Below, piece by piece: positions 2,065 through 49,778 of a stretch of 63,111 nucleotides of DNA (positions are counted from its first letter, which is position 1; each line of letters starts with the position of its first letter). A program made the translations under genes and the position numbers. The notes under the pieces are model-generated. The model was not told the origin of the DNA. It did not search any database and was given only the letters and a program-made list of their open reading frames with translations. The DNA is from Candidatus Wolfebacteria bacterium (lineage in GTDB: Bacteria > Patescibacteriota > Minisyncoccia > UBA6257 > UBA9933). The stretch is taken from positions 1 through 63,111 of the forward strand of contig JACRPK010000007.1 of the NCBI GenBank assembly GCA_016214005.1. The letters are read 5' to 3'.

Positions 2065-3390
2065 ATGGAAAAGATATTAAATTTAATTAAGAAAGCAACC
2101 CCTTCTTATATTTTCGAGTTTTTTCAGCCAATTTACCATTATTTAATGGCTTTATCAGCAGCAGTTTTTTATGGTTTTCCATCGCGGAAAATGATTGTTA
2201 TTGGCGTTATCGGAACAAAAGGAAAAACAACAACCTGCAATTTAATCGCCCAGATTTTAAATTTTAGCGGGCATAAAACAGGCATGGCGACAACGGTTAA
2301 TTTTAGAATCGGCAATAAAGAGTGGAAAAATGAAACAAAACAAACAATGCTTGGCAGATTCAAATTGCAAAAGCTTTTAAGACAAATGGTTGATGAAGAA
2401 TGTGAATATGCGGTAGTGGAAACTTCGTCAGAGGGAATTTTGCAATATAGGCATCGTTTTATTGATTATGATGTCGCGGTTTTTACGAATTTATCTCCGG
2501 AACATATTGAGCGACACGGGGGATTTGAAAATTATCGCAATGCGAAAGTAAAATTATTTGAAAAAGTAGTTCGTAAAAAAAACGGAATAGGCATTTATAA
2601 TTTAGACGATGAAAATGTCGGATATTTTTTAAAACCGGATATTAAAAATAAATATGGATATGGGATTAAATTTCTAACTTCCCATGCCTACCGGCAGGCA
2701 GGCAATTTTCAATTTCCAAAAAAATTGAAAATTTCAAATATTAGTCTTTTCCCTGATAAAACCGAATTTGAATTTAATAATGAAAATTTCAGAATGTCTT
2801 TAATCGGGGAATTCAATGTTTATAATGCCGCAGCCGCGATCTGCGCGGCGCTATCGCAAGGAATTTCAATTGCCAAAATTAAAACCGCTTTGATAAAAGC
2901 AAGGGCGCCTTTTGGCCGAATGGAAATAATAAAATCTAAAGATTTTAATATTATTGTTGACTATGCCCATGAGCCGGCGAGCTTAGAGGCAGTATATAAA
3001 ACAATCAAAAATTCTGGATTAATGAATAAAAATTCAAAAATGATATGTTTGCTTGGGGCGCAGGGCGGAGGCAGAGATAAATGGAAGCGTCCGGAAATGG
3101 GTAAAATCGCAGATCAGTATTGCGATAAAATTATTTTAACCAATGAAGATCCTTATGATGAAAATCCAAGCCAGATTTTATCAGATATAAAATCTGGAAT
3201 TAAAAAATCAGAAAATTTATATGAGATTGTGGATAGAAAAGAAGCTATTAAAAAAGCGCTTTCATTGGCAAAAAGCGGCGATGCAGTTGTTTTAACTGGC
3301 AAGGGGGGCGAAAGTTCAATGTGTGTTGAAAATAATAAAAAAATTCCGTGGAACGAAAGCGAAATAGTTAAGGTTTTATTAAATAAATAA
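2065..3390 (+). CDS. murE: Mur ligase family protein, MurE-like (UDP-MurNAc-tripeptide synthetase)
   Basis: P-loop GVIGTKGKTTT, DYAHEP motif, and the C-terminal Mur ligase domain (GAQGGGRDKWKRPEMG). The precise amino-acid specificity cannot be read from the sequence. Confidence 0.7.
   Translation: MEKILNLIKKATPSYIFEFFQPIYHYLMALSAAVFYGFPSRKMIVIGVIGTKGKTTTCNLIAQILNFSGHKTGMATTVNFRIGNKEWKNETKQTMLGRFKLQKLLRQMVDEECEYAVVETSSEGILQYRHRFIDYDVAVFTNLSPEHIERHGGFENYRNAKVKLFEKVVRKKNGIGIYNLDDENVGYFLKPDIKNKYGYGIKFLTSHAYRQAGNFQFPKKLKISNISLFPDKTEFEFNNENFRMSLIGEFNVYNAAAAICAALSQGISIAKIKTALIKARAPFGRMEIIKSKDFNIIVDYAHEPASLEAVYKTIKNSGLMNKNSKMICLLGAQGGGRDKWKRPEMGKIADQYCDKIILTNEDPYDENPSQILSDIKSGIKKSENLYEIVDRKEAIKKALSLAKSGDAVVLTGKGGESSMCVENNKKIPWNESEIVKVLLNK
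2683..2702. repeat. Degenerate copy of the GC-rich palindrome family (CATGCCTACCGGCAGGCAGG) inside the murE-like CDS
   Basis: 18/20 match to CCTGCCTGCCGGCAGGCAGG. It encodes HAYRQAG in frame. Confidence 0.8.
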
Positions 3391-5885: not shown

Positions 5886-7742
5886 ATGGCAAAAATATTA
5901 GGAATAGATTTGGGCACAACTAATTCAGCGATAGCTATTGTTGAAGGCGGCGAGCCGAAAATTTTAGAAAATCACGAAGGCAACAGAACTACGCCGTCGG
6001 TGGTGGCGATGAGTAAAACCAATGAAAGACTTGCCGGGCTTTTGGCTAAGCGTCAGTCGGTGGTAAACCCGAAAAATACGATTTTTTCGGTCAAAAGATT
6101 GATTGGCAGGAAATTTAGCGATGAGGAAGTTCAGCGCGATAAAGCTTGGCTTCCTTATGAAATTAAAGAATCAGCTTCTGGCGGCGTGGAAGTAAAAATG
6201 GGAGATCGCTGGTATAAGCCGGAAGAAATTTCGGCAATGGTCTTGGCAAAATTGAAAGCTGACGCTGAAGCAAAAACCGGCGAAAAAATAGAAGAGGCGG
6301 TGATTACGGTGCCGGCTTATTTTGACGATTCCCAGAGGCAGGCAACCAAAAATGCCGGCGAAATCGCCGGACTTAAAGTCCGCCGCATTATCAACGAACC
6401 GACAGCCGCGGCTTTAGCTTACGGCTTAAACCGCCAGAAAAACGAGAAAATCATTGTTTATGATTTTGGCGGCGGCACTTTTGACATTTCAATTTTGGAA
6501 GTTGGCGATGATGTGGTTGAAGTAAAAGGCACGGGAGGAGACACTCATTTGGGCGGAGATGATTTTGACAAAAAAATAATTCAGTATCTTGTCGAAGAAT
6601 ATAAAAAAACCGAAGGAATTGATATTTCTAAAGACCCGCTAGCTTTGCAAAGGCTTAAAGAAGCGGCTGAGCGCGCCAAACACGAGCTTTCAACCGCGTT
6701 TGATACGGAAATCAATTTGCCTTATATCACTTCCGACGCCAGCGGACCAAAACATTTTATTTTGAAAATGACTCGCGCTAAATTGGAAGAATTAGTGGCT
6801 GATGATATTAAACATTCAATTGATTTGACTAAAAAAGCTCTTGACGAAGTCGGACTTAAGCCAGCGGACATCAATGAAGTGGTTCTTGTCGGAGGACAAA
6901 CTAGAATGCCGGCGATCGTTGATGCGGTTAAAAAATTTTTTGGCAAAGATCCGCATAAGGGAATCAATCCGGATGAAGTGGTGGCGGCCGGAGCGGCAGT
7001 CCAGGCTGGAATCTTTCAGGGAGATGTCAAAGACATTTTACTTTTAGATGTTACCCCTCTTTCGCTCGGACTTGAAACATTTGGCGGGGTATTTACTCCT
7101 TTGATAGAAAAAAATACAACCGTGCCGACTTCAAAATCTCAAATATTTTCAACAGCGGCTGATAATCAAACTTCTGTGGAAATTCATATTCTGCAGGGAG
7201 AGCGCTCCATGGCGGCTGATAATAAAACTTTAGGCAGATTTATTTTAGACGGCATTCCGCCGGCTTCTCGCGGCATTCCGCAGGTGGAAGTTATTTTTGA
7301 TATTGACGCTAACGGAATTTTGAGCGTTTCGGCCAAAGATAAAGCAAGCGGAAAAACGCAATCCGTTCGCATTGAAGCTTCAACCCAGTTATCAAAAGAA
7401 GAAATTGAAAAATTGAAAAATGAAGCTACGGCGCACGCCGAAGAAGACAAAAAGAAAAAAGATTTGGCTGAGGCGAAGAATATTGCCGAGCAAACGCTTT
7501 ATTTGGCGGAAAAAACTTTAAGGGAAATGGGCGATAAAGTGAGCGCGGAAATTAAAGACAACGTCAATAAAAAAATAGAAGAATTAAAATCAGTGAAAGA
7601 CGGCCAGGATGTTGAGGCTGTAAAATCCAAAACATCGGAACTTTCTTTGGAGCTTCAAAAAATCGGGCAGTCAATGTATAATAAAAACGAAGGGCAGGAA
7701 GGCGGACAAAAAGATAATCAAGAACCGCAGCAGAATCCTTAG
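5886..7742 (+). CDS. dnaK: Molecular chaperone DnaK (Hsp70)
   Basis: [27 protein letters not shown]; 618 aa in full. Confidence 0.98.
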
Positions 7743-9949: not shown

Positions 9950-10020
9950 GCTTCCATAGCTCAGTGGTAGAGCAGATGCCTTTTAAGCATTTGATCAAGG
10001 TTCGATTCCTTGTGGAAGCA
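9950..10020 (+). tRNA. tRNA-Lys (anticodon UUU)
   Basis: Manual cloverleaf: acceptor GCTTCCA/TGGAAGC, anticodon loop CTTTTAA, T arm CAAGG-TTCGATT-CCTTG. No encoded CCA. Confidence 0.85.
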
Positions 10021-10025
10021 CAGAT

Positions 10026-10063
10026 ATAAAATAAAATATTAATTTTTTAATATTTTATTTTAT
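10026..10063 (+). terminator. AT-only hairpin immediately after tRNA-Lys (terminator-like)
   Basis: ATAAAATAAAATATT / AATATTTTATTTTAT forms a perfect 15-bp stem with the loop AATTTTTT. Confidence 0.4.
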
Positions 10064-10069
10064 TGTATT

Positions 10070-10167
10070 CCCACAAGGAATCGAAGGGTTCTATGAATTT
10101 TTCATTTTTATAAAAAGTGAAAAATGAATTTAGAACCCAGGGACGCATTCCTTGTGGAAGCACAGAT
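10070..10167 (+). repeat. tRNA-associated hairpin element, copy A: an inverted T-arm copy, a conserved 62-nt core and a direct 21-nt duplicate of the tRNA-Lys T-loop/3' end
   Basis: 10070-10085 is the reverse complement of the tRNA segment TTCGATTCCTTGTGG (plus one extra, non-matching base). The core at 10083-10144 is about 92% identical to 49530-49592. 10147-10167 equals 10005-10025. Confidence 0.85.
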
Positions 10168-11655: not shown

Positions 11656-12676
11656 ATGAACGATCTTATTCAACGGCTCAATGAATTAAAAGAACAAGCC
11701 CGGATGTTAGCCGGGCGTCTTTGACATTGAAAATAAAAAAAACCGCGTCAAGGAAATTGAATTTGAATTTAGCGATCCTGATTTTTGGAAAAATAAATCT
11801 GTGGCTGATTTAAAAATCAAAGAAATCGGCGAACTTAACGAAACAATTAAAAAAATCGGAGAAATTGATCTTGGGCTTGAAAAACTACAATCTCAATTTG
11901 ATGAAAATTTATTTTATGATATCCAAAGAAAGCTTCGCCAACTGGAAACGGAATTATTGTTTAAAGGAAAATATGATAAGCAAGCCGCTATAATTTCGGT
12001 TTTTTCCGGAGCCGGAGGAGAAGACGCCAAAGATTGGGCGAATATGCTTGTTTCAATGTATAAGAAATTTGCCGAAGGCCGCAACTGGAAAGCGAAAATT
12101 CTTGACGATGAAAACGGCGTTATTGAAATAAAAGGCGATTATGCTTACGGGTATCTTAAAAATGAAGCAGGGGTCCACAGATTGGTGAGAATTTCTCCGT
12201 TTTCTCCGGAACAAAAAAGGCACACTTCATTTGCTTTGGTTGAAGTTTTACCGGATTTGCCGGAAGTTGATTATGAAGGATTAAAGATTCCGGAAGAAGA
12301 TTTAAGATTTGAATTTTCGCGCGCCGGCGGTCCGGGCGGGCAAAATGTTAATAAGGTGGAAACAGCTGTCCGCATTGTTCATTTGCAGACTGGCATTGCG
12401 GCCGGATCGCGAGCCGAAAGATCACAGGCGCAAAATAGAGACAAGGCCATGAAAATGCTCAAAGCTAAACTTGTTAAATTGATGGAAGAAACAAAAGCTC
12501 AAGAAATTAACCAATTAAAAACAAAAGTGAAGCCAGAATGGGGGAATCAAATCCGCTCTTATGTTTTAAATCCTTATAAGCTCGTTAAAGATCACAGAAC
12601 TAATGTTGAAACAGCTCAAGTTGATAAAGTTTTAGAAGGAGATCTTGATATGTTCGTGGAGAGTGGGGTAAAATAG
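11656..12676 (+). CDS. prfB: Peptide chain release factor 2 with a programmed +1 frameshift (frame 0 covers 11656..11721, frame +1 covers 11723..12676)
   Basis: The ATG at 11656 opens MNDLIQRLNELKEQARMLAGRL followed by an in-frame TGA at 11722, within CTT TGA C. The +1 frame continues DIENKKNRVKEIEFEFSDPDFW... into the 11801 ORF, which contains SPF and GGQ (SRAGGPGGQNVNKVETAVR). Confidence 0.92.
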
Positions 12677-22227: not shown

Positions 22228-23562
22228 ATGCGGACTTTAATTAAAGACATTATTGGTAAAGAAGGAGAAAGCGTTGAATTGATGGGCTGGGTTGATGCAA
22301 GGCGCGATCACGGCAAATTGATTTTTATTGACTTGCGAGACCGAAGCGGCATTGCCCAGGTTGTTTTTTTGCCGTCGAATAAAGAGGCCGGTGAATTGGC
22401 AAAAGATCTTCGTTTTCAGTGGGTTGTTAAATTATCTGGCAAAGTGAGTCGCCGGCCGAAAAATATGATAAATTTGGAAATTGAAACCGGCGAGTTTGAA
22501 GTGGCGGCGGAAAGTCTTGAAATTTTAAGCCGAGCTGAAGAAATTCCTTTTGATCCGGCTGCGGAAATATCTTTGGAAACTTTTTTGGATTGGCAGCCGT
22601 TTGCTTTGCGCACTGAAAAATCCCGCAATATTTTTAAAATTCAGGCGGAAATTGTTCGCGCTTTCAGGAATTTTTTAATTGAAAAAGAATTTGTTGAAGT
22701 TCAAGTTCCTAAAATTGTGGCCCAGGTGACCGAAGGTGGCGCCAATGTTTTTAAATTAGATTATTTTGATTCAAAGGCTTATCTTGCTCAAAGCCCGCAG
22801 TTTTATAAACAAATTATGGTTGGAATTTTTGAGCGGGTTTTTACTATCGGCAATGTTTATCGGGCTGAAGAGCATAGCACTACCAGGCATTTAAACGAAT
22901 ATACCAGCTTGGATTTGGAATTTGGTTTTATTGAAGACCACAGCGATGTAATGGATTTGGAAAACGAATTGCTTGTTTATATAATGGATCATTTGAAAAA
23001 AACTTGCGCTCGGGAATTTAAATTTTTCAATTTTGAAATTCCGAAAGTGCCGCAAAAAATTCCGGCAATAAAATTAAGGGAAGCTCAAAAAATTTTAAAA
23101 GAAAAATATGGCATTGATTGTCAAAATGAGCCGGATTTGGAACCCAGTCATGAGCGTCAAATTTGCGAATATGCCAAAAAAGAATTTGGCTCGGATTTTA
23201 TTTTCATAACGCATTATCCTGTTGAAAAAAGGCCTTTTTATACTTTTCCGGATAAAGACGACCTTGGTTATACAAAAAGTTTTGATTTGCTTTTCAGGGG
23301 AATTGAAATCACAACCGGCGGCCAGCGTATTCATGACTATCAAATGCTTGTTGAAAATATCAAAAAATGGAAAATAGATCCGGAAAAATTTAGTTTTTAT
23401 CTTCAGGCGTTTAAATACGGAATGCCTCCGGAAGGCGGACTTGCGATAGGTTTGGAAAGGCTTACGCAAAAAATTTTAAATCTTGAGAATGTTAGGGAAG
23501 CGGCTCTTTTCCCAAGAGATATGAATAGAATTGATATCTTGTTATCTTCTCTTAAAAAATAA
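22228..23562 (+). CDS. aspS: Aspartate--tRNA ligase, archaeal/eukaryotic type (class IIb)
   Basis: 444 aa. OB-fold N-terminus, FRAEEHSTTRHLNEYTSLDLE (motif 2) and GGLAIGLERL (motif 3). Confidence 0.85.
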   Translation: MRTLIKDIIGKEGESVELMGWVDARRDHGKLIFIDLRDRSGIAQVVFLPSNKEAGELAKDLRFQWVVKLSGKVSRRPKNMINLEIETGEFEVAAESLEILSRAEEIPFDPAAEISLETFLDWQPFALRTEKSRNIFKIQAEIVRAFRNFLIEKEFVEVQVPKIVAQVTEGGANVFKLDYFDSKAYLAQSPQFYKQIMVGIFERVFTIGNVYRAEEHSTTRHLNEYTSLDLEFGFIEDHSDVMDLENELLVYIMDHLKKTCAREFKFFNFEIPKVPQKIPAIKLREAQKILKEKYGIDCQNEPDLEPSHERQICEYAKKEFGSDFIFITHYPVEKRPFYTFPDKDDLGYTKSFDLLFRGIEITTGGQRIHDYQMLVENIKKWKIDPEKFSFYLQAFKYGMPPEGGLAIGLERLTQKILNLENVREAALFPRDMNRIDILLSSLKK

Positions 23563-23569
23563 TTTTAAA

Positions 23570-24907
23570 ATGGACAATTTTAAACAAAAATTTTCGCAAT
23601 ATATTAAAATGCCCGAGATGCGGCCGTTTTGGTATTTTTTGCCGTTTGTCATTGGATTTTTTATTGTTGAAGGAATTGAAGAGACATTTCATGTCCAAAG
23701 TTCTTTGATCTTTATTTTTAATTCTTTATTTTTTATTGCGATCGCAATTTTTCTTTTTATTATTAGTCTTCGATTGGCCAGGGCGAATTTGGAAGTTAAA
23801 TTGGAGCATAATGAACTTTCGAGCATAATTTCAACTCTTCAAAGCGGGATTGTGGCTTATGATCCGAATTTTAAAATAACTATTTTTAATAAAATTGCCG
23901 AGGGAATTTTCGGTTTGCGATCAGATGAAATAATCGGAAAAATTTTTACTCCGGAAAACATCAAAGAGCCAAGATTAAAATTATTTATTCAAACAATGTT
24001 TCCGTCGCTTGCGCCTGCCATTATTAAGCGTTCCGATCCGGGAGTTTATCCGCAGATTGTTGATGTTTCTTTCGGTGAGAATCGGCTCAATTTACGGGTG
24101 GCGACTAATAAAATTATTGATCCCGCTGGCAATCTTTTGGGTTTTGTTAAAATTATTGTTGACAGAACGCGCGAAGTCGAACTTATAAAATCAAAAAGCG
24201 AATTTATCGGAGTGGCGGCGCATCAATTAAGAACGCCGATTACGAGCTTGCACTGGATGTTTGAATCTCTTTCCGGCGAATCTTTAAGCGATAATGCCAA
24301 GCAAATTGTTAATTCCGGGCTTGAACAATCGGCTTTTGTTTCAAAAATAGTCAATGATTTGCTTGATGTATCTCAAATTGAAGAAGGAAGATTCGGTTTT
24401 AATTTTGGGAAAGTGAATATTGGATTTTTAATTGATGAAATTATCGGATCTGCCAAGAGTTTTGTTGAAGAAGCTGGCATTAAAATTTTTTTTCAAAAGC
24501 CGGTTGAGCCGATTGAATTGAATGTTGATTCGCAAAAATTAAGCATGGCTTTGTATAATATTTTAGATAATGCCGTAAGATACAATGTTAAAAACGGAGA
24601 AGTGCGCATTGATATTGAAAAATTGGCGGACAAGCCTTATGTGCAGATCGCGATTAGGGATACTGGCATTGGGATTCCTCCTGTTGAGATAGATAAATTA
24701 TTCACTAAATTTTTTAGAGCTGAAAATGCGATTAGATATGCGCCAAACGGATCCGGGCTCGCGCTTTATATTGCTAAAAATATTATTAAACGTCATGGTG
24801 GCGATATCCGCGCTGAATCGGAAATTAACCGCGGCAGCGTTTTTTATATTACCCTGCCGACGGATTCAAGTTTGATTCCGCCAAAAGAAATTGTCTACGA
24901 ATCATAG
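23570..24907 (+). CDS. Sensor histidine kinase (2 TM helices, PAS, HisKA, HATPase_c)
   Basis: H-box GVAAHQLRTPIT, N-box DNAVRYN, G-boxes RDTGIGI and GSGLALYIAK. No response regulator gene is adjacent. Confidence 0.88.
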   Translation: MDNFKQKFSQYIKMPEMRPFWYFLPFVIGFFIVEGIEETFHVQSSLIFIFNSLFFIAIAIFLFIISLRLARANLEVKLEHNELSSIISTLQSGIVAYDPNFKITIFNKIAEGIFGLRSDEIIGKIFTPENIKEPRLKLFIQTMFPSLAPAIIKRSDPGVYPQIVDVSFGENRLNLRVATNKIIDPAGNLLGFVKIIVDRTREVELIKSKSEFIGVAAHQLRTPITSLHWMFESLSGESLSDNAKQIVNSGLEQSAFVSKIVNDLLDVSQIEEGRFGFNFGKVNIGFLIDEIIGSAKSFVEEAGIKIFFQKPVEPIELNVDSQKLSMALYNILDNAVRYNVKNGEVRIDIEKLADKPYVQIAIRDTGIGIPPVEIDKLFTKFFRAENAIRYAPNGSGLALYIAKNIIKRHGGDIRAESEINRGSVFYITLPTDSSLIPPKEIVYES

Positions 24908-24961
24908 CGGAAGAGGATAAGGGCTAAAAATTTATTATATTTTTTCGGTAAGCGAATCCGA

Positions 24962-25019
24962 CCTGCCTGCCGCCTGCCTGCCGGTAGGCAGGGCAGGCAG
25001 GGAGCCAAGCGCATCCCGC
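24962..25019. repeat. Compound GC-rich palindromic element (nested CCTGCCTGCC.../...GGCAGGCAGG) plus a 16-mer, GCCAAGCGCATCCCGC, that recurs inverted at 41359..41374
   Basis: Read directly. Intergenic, between the histidine kinase gene and pyk. Confidence 0.85.
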
Positions 25020-31820: not shown

Positions 31821-33305
31821 TTACATCCAAATCAATTTATCTCCTTCATTGATTTTGATTTCCGATTCAAACATAAATCCGCATTCTTCGCCGCTTGAGA
31901 CTTGATTTGCGTCTTGCTTATGTTTTTTAATGTTAGTGATTTTCCCATTGCCGATTTCTTTTTCGGCTCTTAAAATTTTCAAACGCTGATTATTTTTAAA
32001 AACTCCGGAAACAACGCGTCCGCCGATAAGCTGTTCTTCTCCCTGCCTGCCGGCAGGCAGGCTTTTTGAGCTGAAAATTTTTATTGTTTCAAAAATTCCC
32101 TGGGGAACCGGTTTTGCCAAAAGTTTTATTTCATCTTTTATCGCTTCAACAAGCTCGTAAATAATTTCCGAAGAAATAATTTTTATATTGCTTATTTTGG
32201 CGGCGCTTTCCGCTATTTTATTCTGTTTTGTTTTAAAGGCGATAATTATTGACTTGCTGGAATCGGCGTTTTTAACATCGCCATCGGTTATTTCACCGAT
32301 TGATTCGGAGATAATTCGCGTTTTGATATCTTCAAAACTTATATTTTTGGCGATTTCCGAAAGAATTTCCAAAGAGCCGGAAACATCAGATTTGAGAATT
32401 AAATTCAATTTTCTAAAATTTTCAGCTTCAATTATCGGCTGGCTTTTTATTTTTTCAATTTGCGGAATTTGGATTTCAGCTAAATCAATATTGCCGGCAA
32501 TAAATTCTTCGCCGATTTGCGGCAGAGTTTCAAATCCTAAAATCATTGCCGGGCCGGAAGGGGATAATTCGTCAGTTTTTTTGCCCAAAAAATCTTCTAA
32601 AATTTTTATTTTCCCGCAAGCGCTTTTGGTGGCGATTCTTGAACCGGTTTTTAAAATTCCGTTTTTAACAATTGCGGAAACAACAATGCCCCTGCGGCTG
32701 TCTGCTTTGGCTTCTATAATCACGCCGCTGGCATTGGCTTTTGGTTCATAGGTTAAATTTTCCATTTCAGCGGCAAGCAATATCAAGTCAAGGAGCTCGT
32801 TAACTCCTTGTCCATTTTTGGCGGAAATCGCTTGCCAGGAAATATTGCTGCCATAACCTTCAAGAAAAACATTATTCGCCATTAAATCATTTTTTGCTTT
32901 TTCAATGTCCGCTCCGGGCTTATCAATTTTATTTATCGCCACAATAAAAGGAGTTTTTGAAGAATTTAAAATTTCAATTGATTCTTTGGTTTGGGGCTTG
33001 ATGCCATCGTCGGCAGCCACAACTAAAATCGCCAAATCAGCGACATTGGCTCCTCTTGCGCGCATTTTTGAAAAAGCTTCGTGCCCGGGAGTATCAATAA
33101 AAGTAATTTTTTTTTCATTATGTTTAATTTCATAAGCGCCGATTGATTGGGTGATGCCGCCGGCTTCTTTGGCAACGATGTTTGTTTTGCGGATATAATC
33201 AAGCAAAGTGGTTTTGCCGTGGTCAACATGACCCATTATCACAACAATGGGCGAACGCGGCGTCAAATTTTCAATTTTCAATTTTGAATTTTCAATTTTT
33301 GACAT
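31821..33305 (-). CDS. infB: Translation initiation factor IF-2 (short form, 494 aa)
   Basis: G domain VVIMGHVDHGKTTLLD, DTPGHEAF, NKIDK; the C-terminal domains are present. Confidence 0.93.
   Translation of the reverse strand: MSKIENSKLKIENLTPRSPIVVIMGHVDHGKTTLLDYIRKTNIVAKEAGGITQSIGAYEIKHNEKKITFIDTPGHEAFSKMRARGANVADLAILVVAADDGIKPQTKESIEILNSSKTPFIVAINKIDKPGADIEKAKNDLMANNVFLEGYGSNISWQAISAKNGQGVNELLDLILLAAEMENLTYEPKANASGVIIEAKADSRRGIVVSAIVKNGILKTGSRIATKSACGKIKILEDFLGKKTDELSPSGPAMILGFETLPQIGEEFIAGNIDLAEIQIPQIEKIKSQPIIEAENFRKLNLILKSDVSGSLEILSEIAKNISFEDIKTRIISESIGEITDGDVKNADSSKSIIIAFKTKQNKIAESAAKISNIKIISSEIIYELVEAIKDEIKLLAKPVPQGIFETIKIFSSKSLPAGRQGEEQLIGGRVVSGVFKNNQRLKILRAEKEIGNGKITNIKKHKQDANQVSSGEECGFMFESEIKINEGDKLIWM
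32042..32061. repeat. Perfect 20-bp GC-rich palindrome CCTGCCTGCCGGCAGGCAGG inside infB
   Basis: The sequence is its own reverse complement. It encodes LPAGRQG in the infB frame. Confidence 0.95.
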
Positions 33306-49388: not shown

Positions 49389-49470
49389 GCTCTCGTGGCG
49401 GAATTGGCATACGCGCGGCGCTTAGAACGCCGTCCCGCAAGGGTTAGAGGTTCAAATCCTCTCGAGAGCA
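49389..49470 (+). tRNA. tRNA-Leu (anticodon UAG), class II
   Basis: Acceptor GCTCTCG/CGAGAGC, anticodon stem-loop CGGCG-CTTAGAA-CGCCG, a long variable arm, T arm AGAGG-TTCAAAT-CCTCT. Confidence 0.85.
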
Positions 49471-49521
49471 CAAGCGAACGAAGTGAGCGCAGTGAGCGAG
49501 TAGCTCCGCGAAGCGGAGCGT

Positions 49522-49611
49522 GAGGATTTGAAGGGTTCTATGAATTTTTCACTTTTGTAAAAAAATGAAAAATGAATTTAGAACCCAGGGACTAAATCCT
49601 CTCGAGAGCAC
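49522..49611 (+). repeat. tRNA-associated hairpin element, copy B: an inverted T-arm copy, the conserved core and a direct 18-nt duplicate of the tRNA-Leu T-loop/3' end (this copy ends ACCA)
   Basis: 49522-49532 (GAGGATTTGAA) is the reverse complement of TTCAAATCCTC. The core at 49530-49592 matches 10083-10144. 49594-49611 equals 49454-49471. Confidence 0.85.
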
Positions 49612-49778
49612 CAGCGCAGGGGATTGACTTTTCTGAAAAAGTATGCTATCAATAATTTAGTTCGTTCACAAAAACTTTCAGCGCAATTCCGCGCAATAAA
49701 AAGGAGGTAAATAAGGAAGATTTTGTTGAAATGGTTGTGTTAATAACTTTTAATTTTCTTTTTTCATCGGAGGATACA

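What the first reader, a model, noticed from the sequence alone, without database searches (positions are those of the whole stretch)
10005..10167. Conserved 62-nt hairpin element behind tRNA-Lys, with inverted and direct duplicates of the tRNA T-loop/3' end
The layout downstream of tRNA-Lys is:
- an AT-only hairpin;
- an inverted copy of the tRNA T arm (CCCACAAGGAATCGAA, 10070-10085);
- a 62-nt core GAAGGGTTCTATGAATTTTTCA...TGAAAAATGAATTTAGAACCCAGGGAC, which folds through GGGTTCTA/TAGAACCC;
- a perfect 21-nt direct duplicate of the tRNA from the T-loop through the 3' end and 5 nt beyond (10147-10167 equals 10005-10025).

The same core, with the same arrangement but with tRNA-Leu-specific flanks, occurs at 49.5 kb. 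Duplication starting in the T-loop is the classic footprint of tyrosine-integrase att sites. Here, though, the 'element' is only ~120 bp, carries no gene, and has a target-specific inverted arm that extends the hairpin. It could be a miniature cis-mobilisable element, a relic of integration and excision, or a tRNA-linked structured RNA.
Basis: seen in the sequence. Interest (0 to 1): 0.62.

Follow-up and report, generated by a model that had tools for sequence, protein, structure and literature searches.

The report
Tiny gene-less insert behind tRNA genes
Behind tRNA-Lys and tRNA-Leu of this ultra-small (Patescibacteria) bacterium sits a 140-base, protein-less, hairpin-shaped insert that carries a sense and an antisense copy of the tRNA's own tail; it belongs to an apparently undescribed family of very small mobile DNA elements that dock onto tRNA genes without breaking them.

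Summary
Behind tRNA-Lys(UUU) and tRNA-Leu(UAG) lies the same module: tRNA tail (S, T-loop to 3' end), a spacer arm, an inverted T-arm copy (X'), GAA, a conserved hairpin, AGGGAC, then S again.

It is one member of a family. I found 17 independent insertions in 12 genomes plus metagenome contigs, behind 13 different tRNA species. Every one lies just 3' of a tRNA on the same strand.

Mobility is supported by three results:
- Orthologous sites in related genomes are empty.
- One genome holds two tandem arrays of identical units.
- A copy in another lineage is 97% identical to the window's Leu copy, while the host genes are about 70% identical.

The hairpin is kept by compensatory Watson-Crick changes, with almost no G-U pairs. 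The junction always falls after C56 of the T-loop.

No Rfam family and no paper matches. No element-borne or consistently co-occurring recombinase was found.

Best reading: a non-autonomous, tRNA-T-loop-specific insertion element whose hairpin plus target-complementary arm is the recombination and targeting module. The enzyme and the strand chemistry are inferred, not shown.

Earlier agents of this scan noted the same kind of element on other Patescibacteria DNA, in at least 84 genomes by word match.

The parts
9950..10021 (+). tRNA-Lys(UUU), intact. It is the only gene for this anticodon in the genome and is the docking target of copy 1.
   Evidence: ARAGORN; Rfam tRNA 76.5 bits; list of all 45 tRNAs
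10005..10025 (+). S-left of copy 1. It runs from the T-loop (position 58) through the discriminator plus 5 nt of trailer, and is the left copy of the 21-nt direct repeat.
   Evidence: Sequence; k-mer scan
10026..10068 (+). Arm of copy 1: an AT-only hairpin (10026-10063) plus TGTAT. It is homologous to the arm of the tRNA-Lys copy in genome G214.
   Evidence: DNA fold; L095 sequence; arm alignment
10069..10085 (+). X' of copy 1, TCCCACAAGGAATCGAA: an inverted copy of tRNA positions 54-70. It matches the GGGAGCA-type tRNA-Lys of relatives for 17 nt, but the own tRNA for only 15 nt plus 1.
10086..10138 (+). Conserved hairpin of copy 1: basal helix GGGTTCTA/TAGAACCC, a 2-nt bulge on the 3' side, UGAA/UGAA mismatches and an AT-rich top.
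   Evidence: Folds; covariation
10139..10146 (+). Tail AGGGAC plus a 2-nt linker (GC). NGGGAC is conserved in all but the most worn copies. The right junction follows it.
10147..10167 (+). S-right of copy 1, the right copy of the 21-nt direct repeat. It pairs with X'.
49389..49471 (+). tRNA-Leu(UAG), intact. It is the only gene for this anticodon and is the target of copy 2. S-left is 49454-49471.
49472..49521 (+). Arm of copy 2, CAAGCGAACGAAGTGAGCGCAGTGAGCGAG... with a GC hairpin at 49503-49519. It is homologous to the arms of copies behind Leu-gag, Arg-tcg, Tyr and Ser tRNAs in other genomes.
49522..49532 (+). X' of copy 2, GAGGATTTGAA: the reverse complement of TTCAAATCCTC in the tRNA-Leu T-arm.
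49533..49586 (+). Conserved hairpin of copy 2. It is 94% identical to copy 1. Over 76 nt it is 97% identical to the copy behind tRNA-Glu on metagenome contigs L040/L043/L045.
49587..49593 (+). Tail AGGGAC plus a 1-nt linker (T).
49594..49611 (+). S-right of copy 2 (AAATCCTCTCGAGAGCAC), followed by CA. This copy therefore reads ...GCA-CCA, whereas the functional tRNA is followed by CAA.
   Evidence: also noted in e1-4532225

Best explanation
The finding is one copy of a family of 93-145-nt, protein-less, non-autonomous mobile DNA elements of Patescibacteria. These elements insert at the T-loop of tRNA genes.

**Layout**
- The left junction lies after C56 of GGTTC.
- The right junction lies after the element's own NGGGAC tail.
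- The unit is bracketed by two copies of the tRNA tail (S, position 57 to at least the discriminator). The upstream tRNA therefore stays whole.

**Inferred working module**
- The module is X'-GAA-[hairpin]-NGGGAC.
- X' is complementary to the T-loop and T-stem 3' strand. It pairs with S, either the element's own or a target's, and so places the GGTTC|R or GGGAC|R junction at a fixed distance from the conserved hairpin.
- That hairpin is the handle for a trans-acting recombinase or nuclease that works on a folded single strand.
- The logic is that of guide plus hairpin in IS200/IS605 ends, or of the folded attC and CTXphi attP(+) sites.

**Shown:** family membership, tRNA association, the fixed junction, insertion polymorphism, tandem amplification, structural conservation, and sequence conservation far above that of the host.

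**Inferred:**
- The single-stranded form and the guide role of X'.
- The class of enzyme.
- The origin of S. It may be carried by the element (attP-like) or copied from the target at insertion (like a target-site duplication).
For: **Family and location**
- 17 distinct insertions were found behind Lys-ttt (2), Leu-tag, Leu-gag, Leu-taa, Arg-tcg (3), Arg-gcg (2), Arg-tct, Gly-tcc, Ile-gat, Tyr-gta, Glu-ctc and Ser-cga (2).
- All lie 5-60 nt 3' of the tRNA on the same strand.

**Mobility**
- The tRNA-Arg(gcg) site is occupied in G213 and empty in G214, G215 and G211, with flanks 76-93% identical.
- Distribution is patchy: 8 of 50 genomes in the family, 5 of 151 in the order sample, and only G000 among 151 in the phylum sample.
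- G387 holds two tandem arrays of 126-nt and 110-nt units. The 110-nt units are 100% identical; the 126-nt array, which spans an N gap, scores 92%.
- The Glu copy (L040) is 97% identical over 76 nt to the window's Leu copy, while host genes are 69-74% identical.

**Fixed junction**
- S-right starts at T-loop position 57 or 58 in every copy.
- It is preceded by NGGGAC plus 0-2 nt, which gives a pseudo T-loop of 6-7 nt.

**Structure**
- 91.7% of cells are paired, against 36-55% for slid controls.
- 19 of 27 pairs change on both sides, including pairs in the basal helix.
- Only 4 G-U cells occur among 375.
- The bulge and the mismatches are conserved.

**X' behaves as an inherited guide**
- The same X' (GGGATTTGAA) serves Leu-gag, Arg-tcg and Glu, which share a T-arm.
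- The window's Lys X' matches the tRNA-Lys of relatives better than its own tRNA.

**The arms belong to the element.** They are homologous across different targets and genomes.

**Other**
- Neighbouring genes are housekeeping: DnaJ, enolase, RecO, a CCA-adding enzyme and a sigma factor.
- No Rfam family matches.
- Five full-text searches found no description.
Against: - **No enzyme identified.** Carrier genomes share only one Xer-like tyrosine recombinase each. Cas1 was absent from the five carriers searched. A Y1 transposase was found in only one of the four searched. Large serine recombinases are missing from two of five.
- **No autonomous relative.** No protein-coding relative carrying the core was found in genome, metagenome or viral collections.
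- **The origin of S is inconsistent between copies.**
  - In Lys (G000), Gly, Glu and Arg-tcg (G387) the repeat runs 5-9 nt into the trailer, which looks like a target duplication.
  - In most CAAG-arm copies it stops at the discriminator, which looks attP-like.
  - In the Ile copy (L109) S-right belongs to a different tRNA-Ile allele.
- **The arrays have another possible origin.** Unequal crossing-over between the S repeats could also produce them.
- **An RNA form probably exists.** The elements are probably co-transcribed with their tRNA, because no terminator lies between them.
Confidence: 0.55

Rival explanations
1. It is a structured non-coding RNA, co-transcribed with and matched to its tRNA. 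Possible roles are a processing or decoy module, or an antisense regulator of the tRNA 3' half. The DNA copies would spread only secondarily, by homologous recombination through the conserved tRNA gene.
For: - It always lies on the tRNA strand directly downstream, with a promoter-like site upstream of the tRNA and no terminator in between.
- The fold is conserved, with covariation, conserved unpaired nucleotides (GAA, NGGGAC) and a conserved bulge.
- In many copies S ends exactly at the discriminator, which is the RNase Z site.
- Earlier agents of the scan read related families as RNA (e1-696650, e1-815498).
Against: - G-U pairs are almost absent: 4 of 375 cells. No pair varies on one side only, which is unusual for an RNA helix with this much variation.
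- Presence is sporadic, and the copies sit behind different tRNAs in sister genomes. This is not what a housekeeping RNA shows.
- Tandem arrays of identical units exist.
- The Glu copy is 97% identical to the window's Leu copy across hosts only about 70% identical, and the two copies sit at different tRNAs.
- No Rfam family matches.
Confidence: 0.15
2. It is an ordinary scar or deletion derivative (CIME-like) of gene-carrying islands that integrate at tRNA genes by a tyrosine or large serine integrase. S would be the att identity block, and the hairpin and X' would be remains of the attP arms or of an inverted second attP.
For: - A duplication that starts in the T-loop and restores the tRNA is the classic T-loop sublocation of integrase islands (established knowledge, Williams 2002).
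- Large serine recombinase genes sit at tRNA 3' ends in these genomes: G000 C1 at tRNA-Ala, and L124, L125, L126 and L128.
- Earlier scan notes describe serine-recombinase elements in Patescibacteria that keep an inverted second attP (e1-4931552, e1-2027993).
- Read on the other strand, X'-GAA-GGGTTCTA is TAGAACCC-TTC-S. That is an inverted copy of the right-hand module TAGAACCC-AGGGAC-S.
Against: - All 17 copies are 93-145 nt. No long version with the same core exists in 596 Gb of genomes or in the metagenome and viral collections.
- Independent deletions would not give the same boundaries 17 times.
- The recombinase loci checked hold no core-like module (best 11.6 bits, E = 0.23) and no NGGGAC tail motif.
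- Two of the five carriers searched, G212 and G220, have no serine recombinase.
- The same core lineage sits at different tRNAs.
Confidence: 0.15
3. No dedicated enzyme exists. The module would be a selfish hitch-hiker that spreads between genomes by natural transformation and RecA recombination, using the tRNA body and the S repeat as homology arms. It would amplify by slippage between the S repeats. The palindrome would arise from template switching at the T-arm.
For: - No candidate enzyme was found.
- The Ile copy has an S-right from another tRNA-Ile allele, as expected from a crossover inside the shared ATTCCTTC.
- Arms and cores are mosaic. The Lys arm is shared by G000 and G214 with different cores, and the AT-type core is shared by the Lys, Leu and Glu copies with different arms.
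- The basal helix GGGTTCTA resembles a T-arm (GGGTTCGA).
Against: - Homologous recombination cannot move a module from one tRNA species to another, yet one core lineage sits at Leu, Lys and Glu.
- Strict conservation of GAA, NGGGAC, the bulge and the helix geometry across diverged copies implies that something recognises them.
- The junction is fixed to the nucleotide after C56.
Confidence: 0.1

Closest known systems
Genomic islands or prophages integrated at tRNA genes by tyrosine integrases (T-loop sublocation), and their non-autonomous CIME derivatives
   Same: - A direct repeat of the tRNA from the T-loop to the 3' end.
- The tRNA is restored at the left junction.
- Orientation is fixed.
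- Tandem accretion occurs at the regenerated site.
   Different: - The unit is 93-145 nt, with no gene and no integrase nearby. Each carrier genome searched has a single Xer-like recombinase; G214 and G385 also gave a second, weak or partial match.
- The interior is a conserved hairpin plus a target-complementary arm.
- One element lineage occupies many tRNA species.
Folded single-strand recombination sites: integron attC, and CTXphi/IMEX attP(+)
   Same: - An imperfect hairpin with conserved bulges and a variable top.
- The stem mimics the double-stranded target.
- The product layout (target site, rest of the element, inverted half, loop, target site) matches what a single strand exchange with a folded circle gives.
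- Arrays form.
   Different: - The target is a tRNA T-loop, not attI or dif.
- There are no R/L box consensus sequences.
- There is no IntI.
- Nothing in the stem resembles a Xer site.
- The cargo is 5-60 nt instead of a gene or a phage.
IS200/IS605 ends and their PATE miniatures (HUH Y1 transposase, guide-cleavage-site pairing)
   Same: - A subterminal hairpin.
- A guide immediately 5' of the hairpin foot that pairs with the sequence at the cleavage site 6-8 nt 3' of the foot.
- Target choice is set by base pairing.
- The elements are tiny and non-coding.
   Different: - The guide is 10-17 nt rather than 4 nt, and it pairs 3' of the junction.
- A 16-26-nt repeat flanks the element, whereas IS200/IS605 makes none.
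- A Y1 transposase is present in only one of the four carriers searched.
Bacterial MITEs and REP-like palindromic repeats
   Same: Small, non-coding, hairpin-forming, multi-copy and patchy in distribution.
   Different: - There are no terminal inverted repeats of a transposase type.
- The target-site duplication is neither fixed nor short.
- There is absolute specificity for the 3' side of tRNA genes.
- Copy number is 1-2 per genome, apart from the arrays.
tRNA-end-copying mini-elements noted by this scan in other Patescibacteria (AI notes e1-1055441, e1-1300366, e1-2451581, e1-833798 and others)
   Same: - The same architecture: an inverted and a direct copy of the tRNA tail around a conserved fold, behind tRNA genes.
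- Empty sites in relatives.
- Tandem copies.
   Different: No sequence-level match to those notes was found. This GGGTT...AACCC-NGGGAC core therefore appears to be a separate sequence family of the same kind.

Membership tests
tRNA-integrating tyrosine-integrase islands / CIME | Direct repeat of the tRNA 3' segment (att identity block), with the tRNA restored at attL | tested here: met
   16-26-nt repeats start at T-loop position 57/58 in all copies.
tRNA-integrating tyrosine-integrase islands / CIME | An integrase gene in the element, or a related autonomous element with the same att sites in the same or related genomes | tested here: not met
   Each of the nine carrier genomes searched has one Xer-like tyrosine recombinase, far from the elements; G214 and G385 also gave a second, weak or partial match. 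No long element with this core was found in any collection.
Integron attC / CALIN | R''/R' boxes (RYYYAAC ... GTTRRRY), with cassette ORFs between the sites | tested here: not met
   The conserved ends are GAA-GGGTT... and ...AACCC-NGGGAC, not R boxes. The 'cargo' is 5-60 nt without an ORF.
Integron attC / CALIN | Conserved hairpin geometry with extrahelical bases and a variable terminal structure | tested here: met
   A 2-nt bulge, conserved mismatches, and a variable top with compensatory changes.
CTXphi-type IMEX | Integration at dif through Xer-binding arms in the folded hairpin | tested here: not met
   The target is a tRNA T-loop in 17 of 17 copies. By eye, the hairpin arms do not form the inverted-repeat pair expected of a Xer site (sequences).
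IS200/IS605 PATE | Y1 HUH transposase (TnpA) in the genome | tested here: not met
   PF01797 was found in only 1 of 4 carriers.
IS200/IS605 PATE | Insertion 3' of a short target motif without duplication | tested here: not met
   The junction lies after GGTTC, but it is always accompanied by a 16-26-nt repeat.
Casposon / Cas1-type integration | Cas1-family integrase; fixed long target duplication; terminal inverted repeats | tested here: not met
   No PF01867 in 5 carriers. The repeat length varies from 16 to 26 nt. There are no terminal inverted repeats.
Large serine recombinase elements at tRNA ends (Patescibacteria) | A serine recombinase gene abutting the tRNA 3' end, with att modules related to this core | tested here: not met
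   Such recombinase genes exist in G000, G214 and G387, but not in G212 or G220. Their loci hold no core-like module or tail motif.
Any Rfam RNA family | Match at or near the gathering score | tested here: not met
   Only tRNA passes. All other hits are far below the gathering score and are generic hairpin models.
Functional structured RNA (generic) | A discrete, stable transcript | not testable with these tools

The most novel reading that the evidence does not exclude
The module is a new class of guide-directed mobile DNA. It would be an ~80-nt hairpin plus a 10-17-nt target-complementary arm that selects tRNA T-loops by base pairing. It would be inserted, with duplication of the tRNA tail, by an enzyme that is not a recognisable transposase or integrase of the element. 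That enzyme might be the host's single Xer-like recombinase or another housekeeping nucleic-acid enzyme. This would make it a minimal, naturally retargetable DNA-insertion system.
Probability: 0.2. Interest if true: 0.88.

Novelty: new variant of a known kind. Interest (0 to 1): 0.68.

Why it matters
- **Smallest of its kind.** If the reading holds, these would be the smallest site-specific integrative elements known to me (about 80-145 nt).
- **A minimal parasite design.** They show that a mobile element can consist of nothing but its recombination site, a target-matching arm and a spare copy of the target's tail.
- **Practical value for annotation.** They explain many odd partial tRNA duplicates in genomes of ultra-small bacteria. 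They also mark tRNA 3' ends as hot, fast-changing sites in genomes otherwise thought to be static.
- **A possible tool.** Identifying the enzyme could give a compact, base-pair-guided DNA insertion system.

Tried and rejected
- **BLAST of the AT-type core against 60 relatives.** It found nothing, because the inner hairpin is not conserved. Pattern and covariance-model searches were needed instead.
- **Rfam, permissive threshold.** It returned only generic hairpin (miRNA-model) noise.
- **Viral contigs.** There were no copies. The single hit is a chance match inside a coding region.
- **Search for a linked enzyme.**
  - Neighbouring genes of 6 copies and both arrays are housekeeping.
  - Reverse transcriptase occurs only in G000.
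  - A Y1 transposase occurs only in G211.
  - Cas1 was not found.
  - Serine recombinases were found in only three of the five carriers searched and are not linked to the element.
- **The 3.4-kb difference upstream of the tRNA between L040 and L045.** I suspected an autonomous element, but the region holds cell-wall genes.
- **Self-cleaving ribozymes, group I or BHB introns in the T-loop, retron or target-primed reverse-transcription origin, IS91-type GTTC targeting.**
  - These were rejected on sequence inspection: no catalytic cores are present, and the upstream tRNA is complete.
  - GTTC is not conserved inside the core in diverged copies.
- **Enolase identity as a yardstick of relatedness.** It was uninformative: 41-45% even within the family.
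Full report
**1. The observation**

- tRNA-Lys(UUU) lies at 9950-10021. After it come:
  - its own trailer;
  - an AT-only hairpin (10026-10063);
  - an inverted copy of the tRNA's T-loop and 3' side (X', 10069/10070-10085);
  - a hairpin closed by GGGTTCTA/TAGAACCC (10086-10138);
  - AGGGAC-GC;
  - a perfect 21-nt copy of 10005-10025 at 10147-10167.
- The same module follows tRNA-Leu(UAG):
  - arm 49472-49521;
  - X' 49522-49532;
  - hairpin 49533-49586;
  - AGGGAC-T;
  - an 18-nt repeat 49594-49611 equal to 49454-49471.
- The core halves occur only at these two places in the window, with about 0 expected from shuffles. They also occur only there in the whole 639-kb genome.
- Of the 45 tRNA genes, only these two have the tail duplicate plus the inverted copy.
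- The modules fold far better than shuffles, with z = -6.8 and -4.0.

**2. It is a family, always behind tRNA genes**

An exact-pattern scan of one genome per prokaryote species gave three more copies. A metagenome scan gave seven loci representing four sites. BLAST and covariance-model searches (models R1 and R2) in relatives gave the rest.

I count 17 distinct insertions in 12 genomes plus metagenome contigs:

| Target tRNA | Copies | Where |
|---|---|---|
| Lys-ttt | 2 | G000, G214 |
| Leu-tag | 1 | G000 (window) |
| Leu-gag | 1 | G352 |
| Leu-taa | 1 | G602 |
| Arg-tcg | 3 | G211, G387, G394 |
| Arg-gcg | 2 | G213, G220 |
| Arg-tct | 1 | G387 |
| Gly-tcc | 1 | G212 |
| Ile-gat | 1 | G212 |
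| Tyr-gta | 1 | G385 |
| Glu-ctc | 1 | metagenome contigs L040/L043/L045 |
| Ser-cga | 2 | metagenome contig L041; G469 |

- Every copy lies 5-60 nt downstream of the tRNA on the tRNA's strand, with the same order of parts (table).
- The family is concentrated in the window's own GTDB family:
  - 8 of 50 genomes there;
  - 5 of 151 in the order sample, including G000;
  - 2 of 151 in a class-level sample;
  - only G000 among 151 in a phylum sample.
- Identical contig coordinates show that G214=G032, G212=G011 and G352=G641. The 'family of G213' is therefore the window's own family.

**3. Anatomy shared by the copies**

A unit reads S - arm - X' - GAA - hairpin - NGGGAC - (0-2 nt), followed by a second S.

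- **S.** It starts at T-loop position 57 or 58 and runs at least to the discriminator.
- **Right junction.** It always reads ...AAyCC-NGGGAC-(N0-2)-R57.... With the following T-stem strand this forms a pseudo T-arm with a 6-7-nt loop. The join is therefore after C56 of GGTTC on the left and after GGGAC(N) on the right.
- **X'.** It is 9-17 nt, always ends in GAA (the complement of T54-C56), and covers the T-loop plus 3-10 nt beyond.
- **Arm.** It is dispensable, being only 5 nt in the Gly copy. Where present it is homologous across different targets and genomes: CAAGnGAAcGAAGTGAAcGCAGTGC..GGGAGC plus a 9-bp hairpin in Leu-tag, Leu-gag, Arg-tcg, Tyr and Ser. A shorter CACnAAGTG... type occurs in three Arg copies. 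An AT-hairpin type occurs in both Lys copies. The arms therefore belong to the element, not to the native trailers.

**4. Structure**

On the model-based alignment of 16 distinct copies (7-copy set):

- 91.7% of cells form standard pairs, against 36-55% when the partner is slid.
- 19 of 27 pairs show changes on both sides, including C-G to U-A in the basal helix.
- No pair varies on one side only, and only 4 of 375 cells are G-U.
- The 2-nt bulge on the 3' side, the A.A and G.A (or UGAA/UGAA) mismatches, and the unpaired GAA and NGGGAC are conserved.

This shows selection on a folded form of one strand. The near absence of wobble pairs fits DNA better than RNA, but this is suggestive only. The alignment was fitted to the model, which inflates pairing somewhat. 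The slid controls share that bias.

**5. Mobility**

- **Empty sites.** The tRNA-Arg(gcg) locus is occupied in G213. In G214, G215 and G211 the same tRNA and flanks (76-93% identical) lack the ~113-nt unit. In G215 the tRNA abuts the sequence that follows S-right in G213.
- **Tandem arrays.** G387 has at least 3 units of 126 nt behind tRNA-Arg(tcg) and at least 4 units of 110 nt behind tRNA-Arg(tct). The 110-nt units are 100% identical. The 126-nt array, which spans an N gap, scores 92% matches. Each unit is S-arm-X'-hairpin-tail.
- **Conservation above the host level.** The Glu copy on L040 is 97% identical over 76 nt to the window's Leu copy. The surrounding genes of the two genomes are 69-74% identical.
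- **Mosaicism.**
  - The window's Lys and Leu copies share the AT-type core (94%) but have unrelated arms.
  - The Lys copies of G000 and G214 share the arm but have different cores.
- **A possible footprint.** tRNA-Arg(gcg) of G000 (contig 8) is followed by CAAGCGAT, the start of the arm consensus, without an element.

**6. Is S carried or copied?**

This is unresolved.

- **For copying from the target.**
  - The repeat includes 5-9 nt of local trailer in the Lys (G000), Gly, Glu and Arg-tcg (G387) copies.
  - In the window's Lys copy both S copies are the local GGAAGCA type. X' is of the GGGAGCA type found in relatives.
- **For carriage (attP-like).**
  - In most CAAG-arm copies the repeat stops at the discriminator, and the conserved arm follows directly.
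  - In the window's Leu copy only S-right is followed by CCA, as a native end would be.
- **A third pattern.** In the Ile copy, S-right belongs to a different tRNA-Ile allele. This suggests spread by homologous recombination as well.

**7. What acts on it?**

Nothing in cis was found.

- Neighbours are DnaJ, enolase, RF, RecO and similar genes.
- Each of the nine carrier genomes searched has one Xer-like tyrosine recombinase; G214 and G385 also gave a second, weak or partial match.
- Reverse transcriptase occurs only in G000.
- A Y1 transposase occurs only in G211.
- Cas1 was found in none of the five carriers searched.
- Large serine recombinases occur in G387 (5), G214 (3) and G000 (1, with an internal stop, at tRNA-Ala). 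G212 and G220 have none.
- Earlier notes of the scan pointed to serine-recombinase elements at tRNA ends that keep an inverted attP. I tested this lead. Such genes do abut tRNA genes here. Their loci, however, hold no core-like module or tail motif.

The enzyme remains unknown.

**8. Most likely mechanism (inferred)**

- X'-GAA-hairpin-NGGGAC works as a folded single-strand site.
- The hairpin is the protein handle.
- X' pairs with S of the element or of a target tRNA gene exposed as a single strand.
- Strand exchange occurs after GGTTC or GGGAC.
- This reproduces the observed product (S, rest of the element, X', hairpin, S) and allows serial insertion into the regenerated site.
- It also explains why one X' serves several tRNAs with the same T-arm.
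- The logic resembles IS200/IS605 guide-hairpin ends and the attC and CTXphi attP(+) sites. Every membership test for those families fails on at least one defining feature.

**9. Rivals**

- **A structured RNA.** An RNA form is likely, because there is no terminator between tRNA and element. The sporadic distribution, the arrays and the lack of G-U pairs argue against a primarily RNA function.
- **Scars of conventional islands.** Seventeen independent deletions to the same boundaries are implausible, and no long relative exists.
- **Enzyme-free spread by homologous recombination and slippage.** This cannot explain moves between tRNA species or the conserved unpaired motifs.

**10. Novelty**

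- No Rfam family matches.
- Five full-text searches found no description.
- Earlier agents of this scan have repeatedly met the same kind of element in other Patescibacteria: 89 notes in at least 84 genomes by word match.
- None shares sequence with this core.
- This is therefore a further sequence family of a widespread, apparently unpublished kind of tRNA-docking mini-element.

Noticed in passing
G000 contigs C4 ~22950-23150, C3 ~24750-24960, C12 ~11670-11900, C17 ~9960-10140, C4 ~67030-67190 (outside the window): Complete tRNA genes (Val, Ala, Pro) are bracketed by the 9-nt inverted repeat CCCTCACCC...GGGTGAGGG. They sit between a 5' piece and a 3' piece of a second tRNA of the same kind. 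This looks like a tRNA-carrying insert that has split a resident tRNA in or near its anticodon arm. The same inverted repeat also occurs as an empty hairpin (C1 73697, C4 7793, C8 9063).
   Followed up: partly
window 32042-32061 and 24973-24992; about 20 further copies in G000: The 20-nt GC palindrome CCTGCCTGCCGGCAGGCAGG is a dispersed repeat in this AT-rich genome. Two copies sit exactly between TTC and GATT of the T-loop in tRNA-Pro-like 3' pieces (C17 10101, C4 67037), the same position as the junction of the element studied here.
   Followed up: partly
window 49594-49616: Only the downstream duplicate of the tRNA-Leu tail is followed by CCA (GCA-CCA). The functional gene is followed by CAA, so it depends on the CCA-adding enzyme.
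   Followed up: no
G000 contig C8, just 3' of tRNA-Arg(gcg) 6212-6284 (minus strand): The trailer reads CAAGCGAT, the first 7 nt of which match the arm consensus (CAAGCGAA). No hairpin module follows. This may be a footprint of a lost copy.
   Followed up: no
L123 (G000:C1:4216-7653): A large serine recombinase gene with an internal TGA stop ends right at the 3' end of tRNA-Ala(ggc). tRNA-Arg(tcg) on C17 and tRNA-Leu(caa) on C22 are followed by CGTTGGAAAAGTCAA..., the same flank that follows a tRNA next to a serine recombinase in G214 (L126).
   Followed up: partly
L127 (G387:C2:384500-387937), 1310-1440 and 2870-3010: A near-perfect inverted repeat of about 110 nt brackets the N-terminal part of a large serine recombinase gene.
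   Followed up: no
L095 (G214:C4:58200-59000, minus strand): The tRNA-Lys locus with the element is flanked by two partial tRNA-Lys 5' fragments, one interrupted by GC hairpins. A GIY-YIG-like ORF fragment lies nearby.
   Followed up: no
L052 (G023:C3, downstream of tRNA-Lys): A second, tRNA-Lys-like sequence is interrupted by two GC-rich hairpin insertions (in the D region and before the T-arm).
   Followed up: no
L097 (G214:C4:47400-48200), between tRNA-Arg(gcg) and TATGATTTT: The 'empty' site carries 17 extra nucleotides (TAAGGAAAGATAGTAAA) that are absent from both the occupied site in G213 and the empty site in G215.
   Followed up: no
G000:C4:87747-88355 and C17:1517-2224: This 639-kb genome has two reverse-transcriptase genes. 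One lies about 2 kb from tRNA-His. The other element-bearing genomes searched have none.
   Followed up: no
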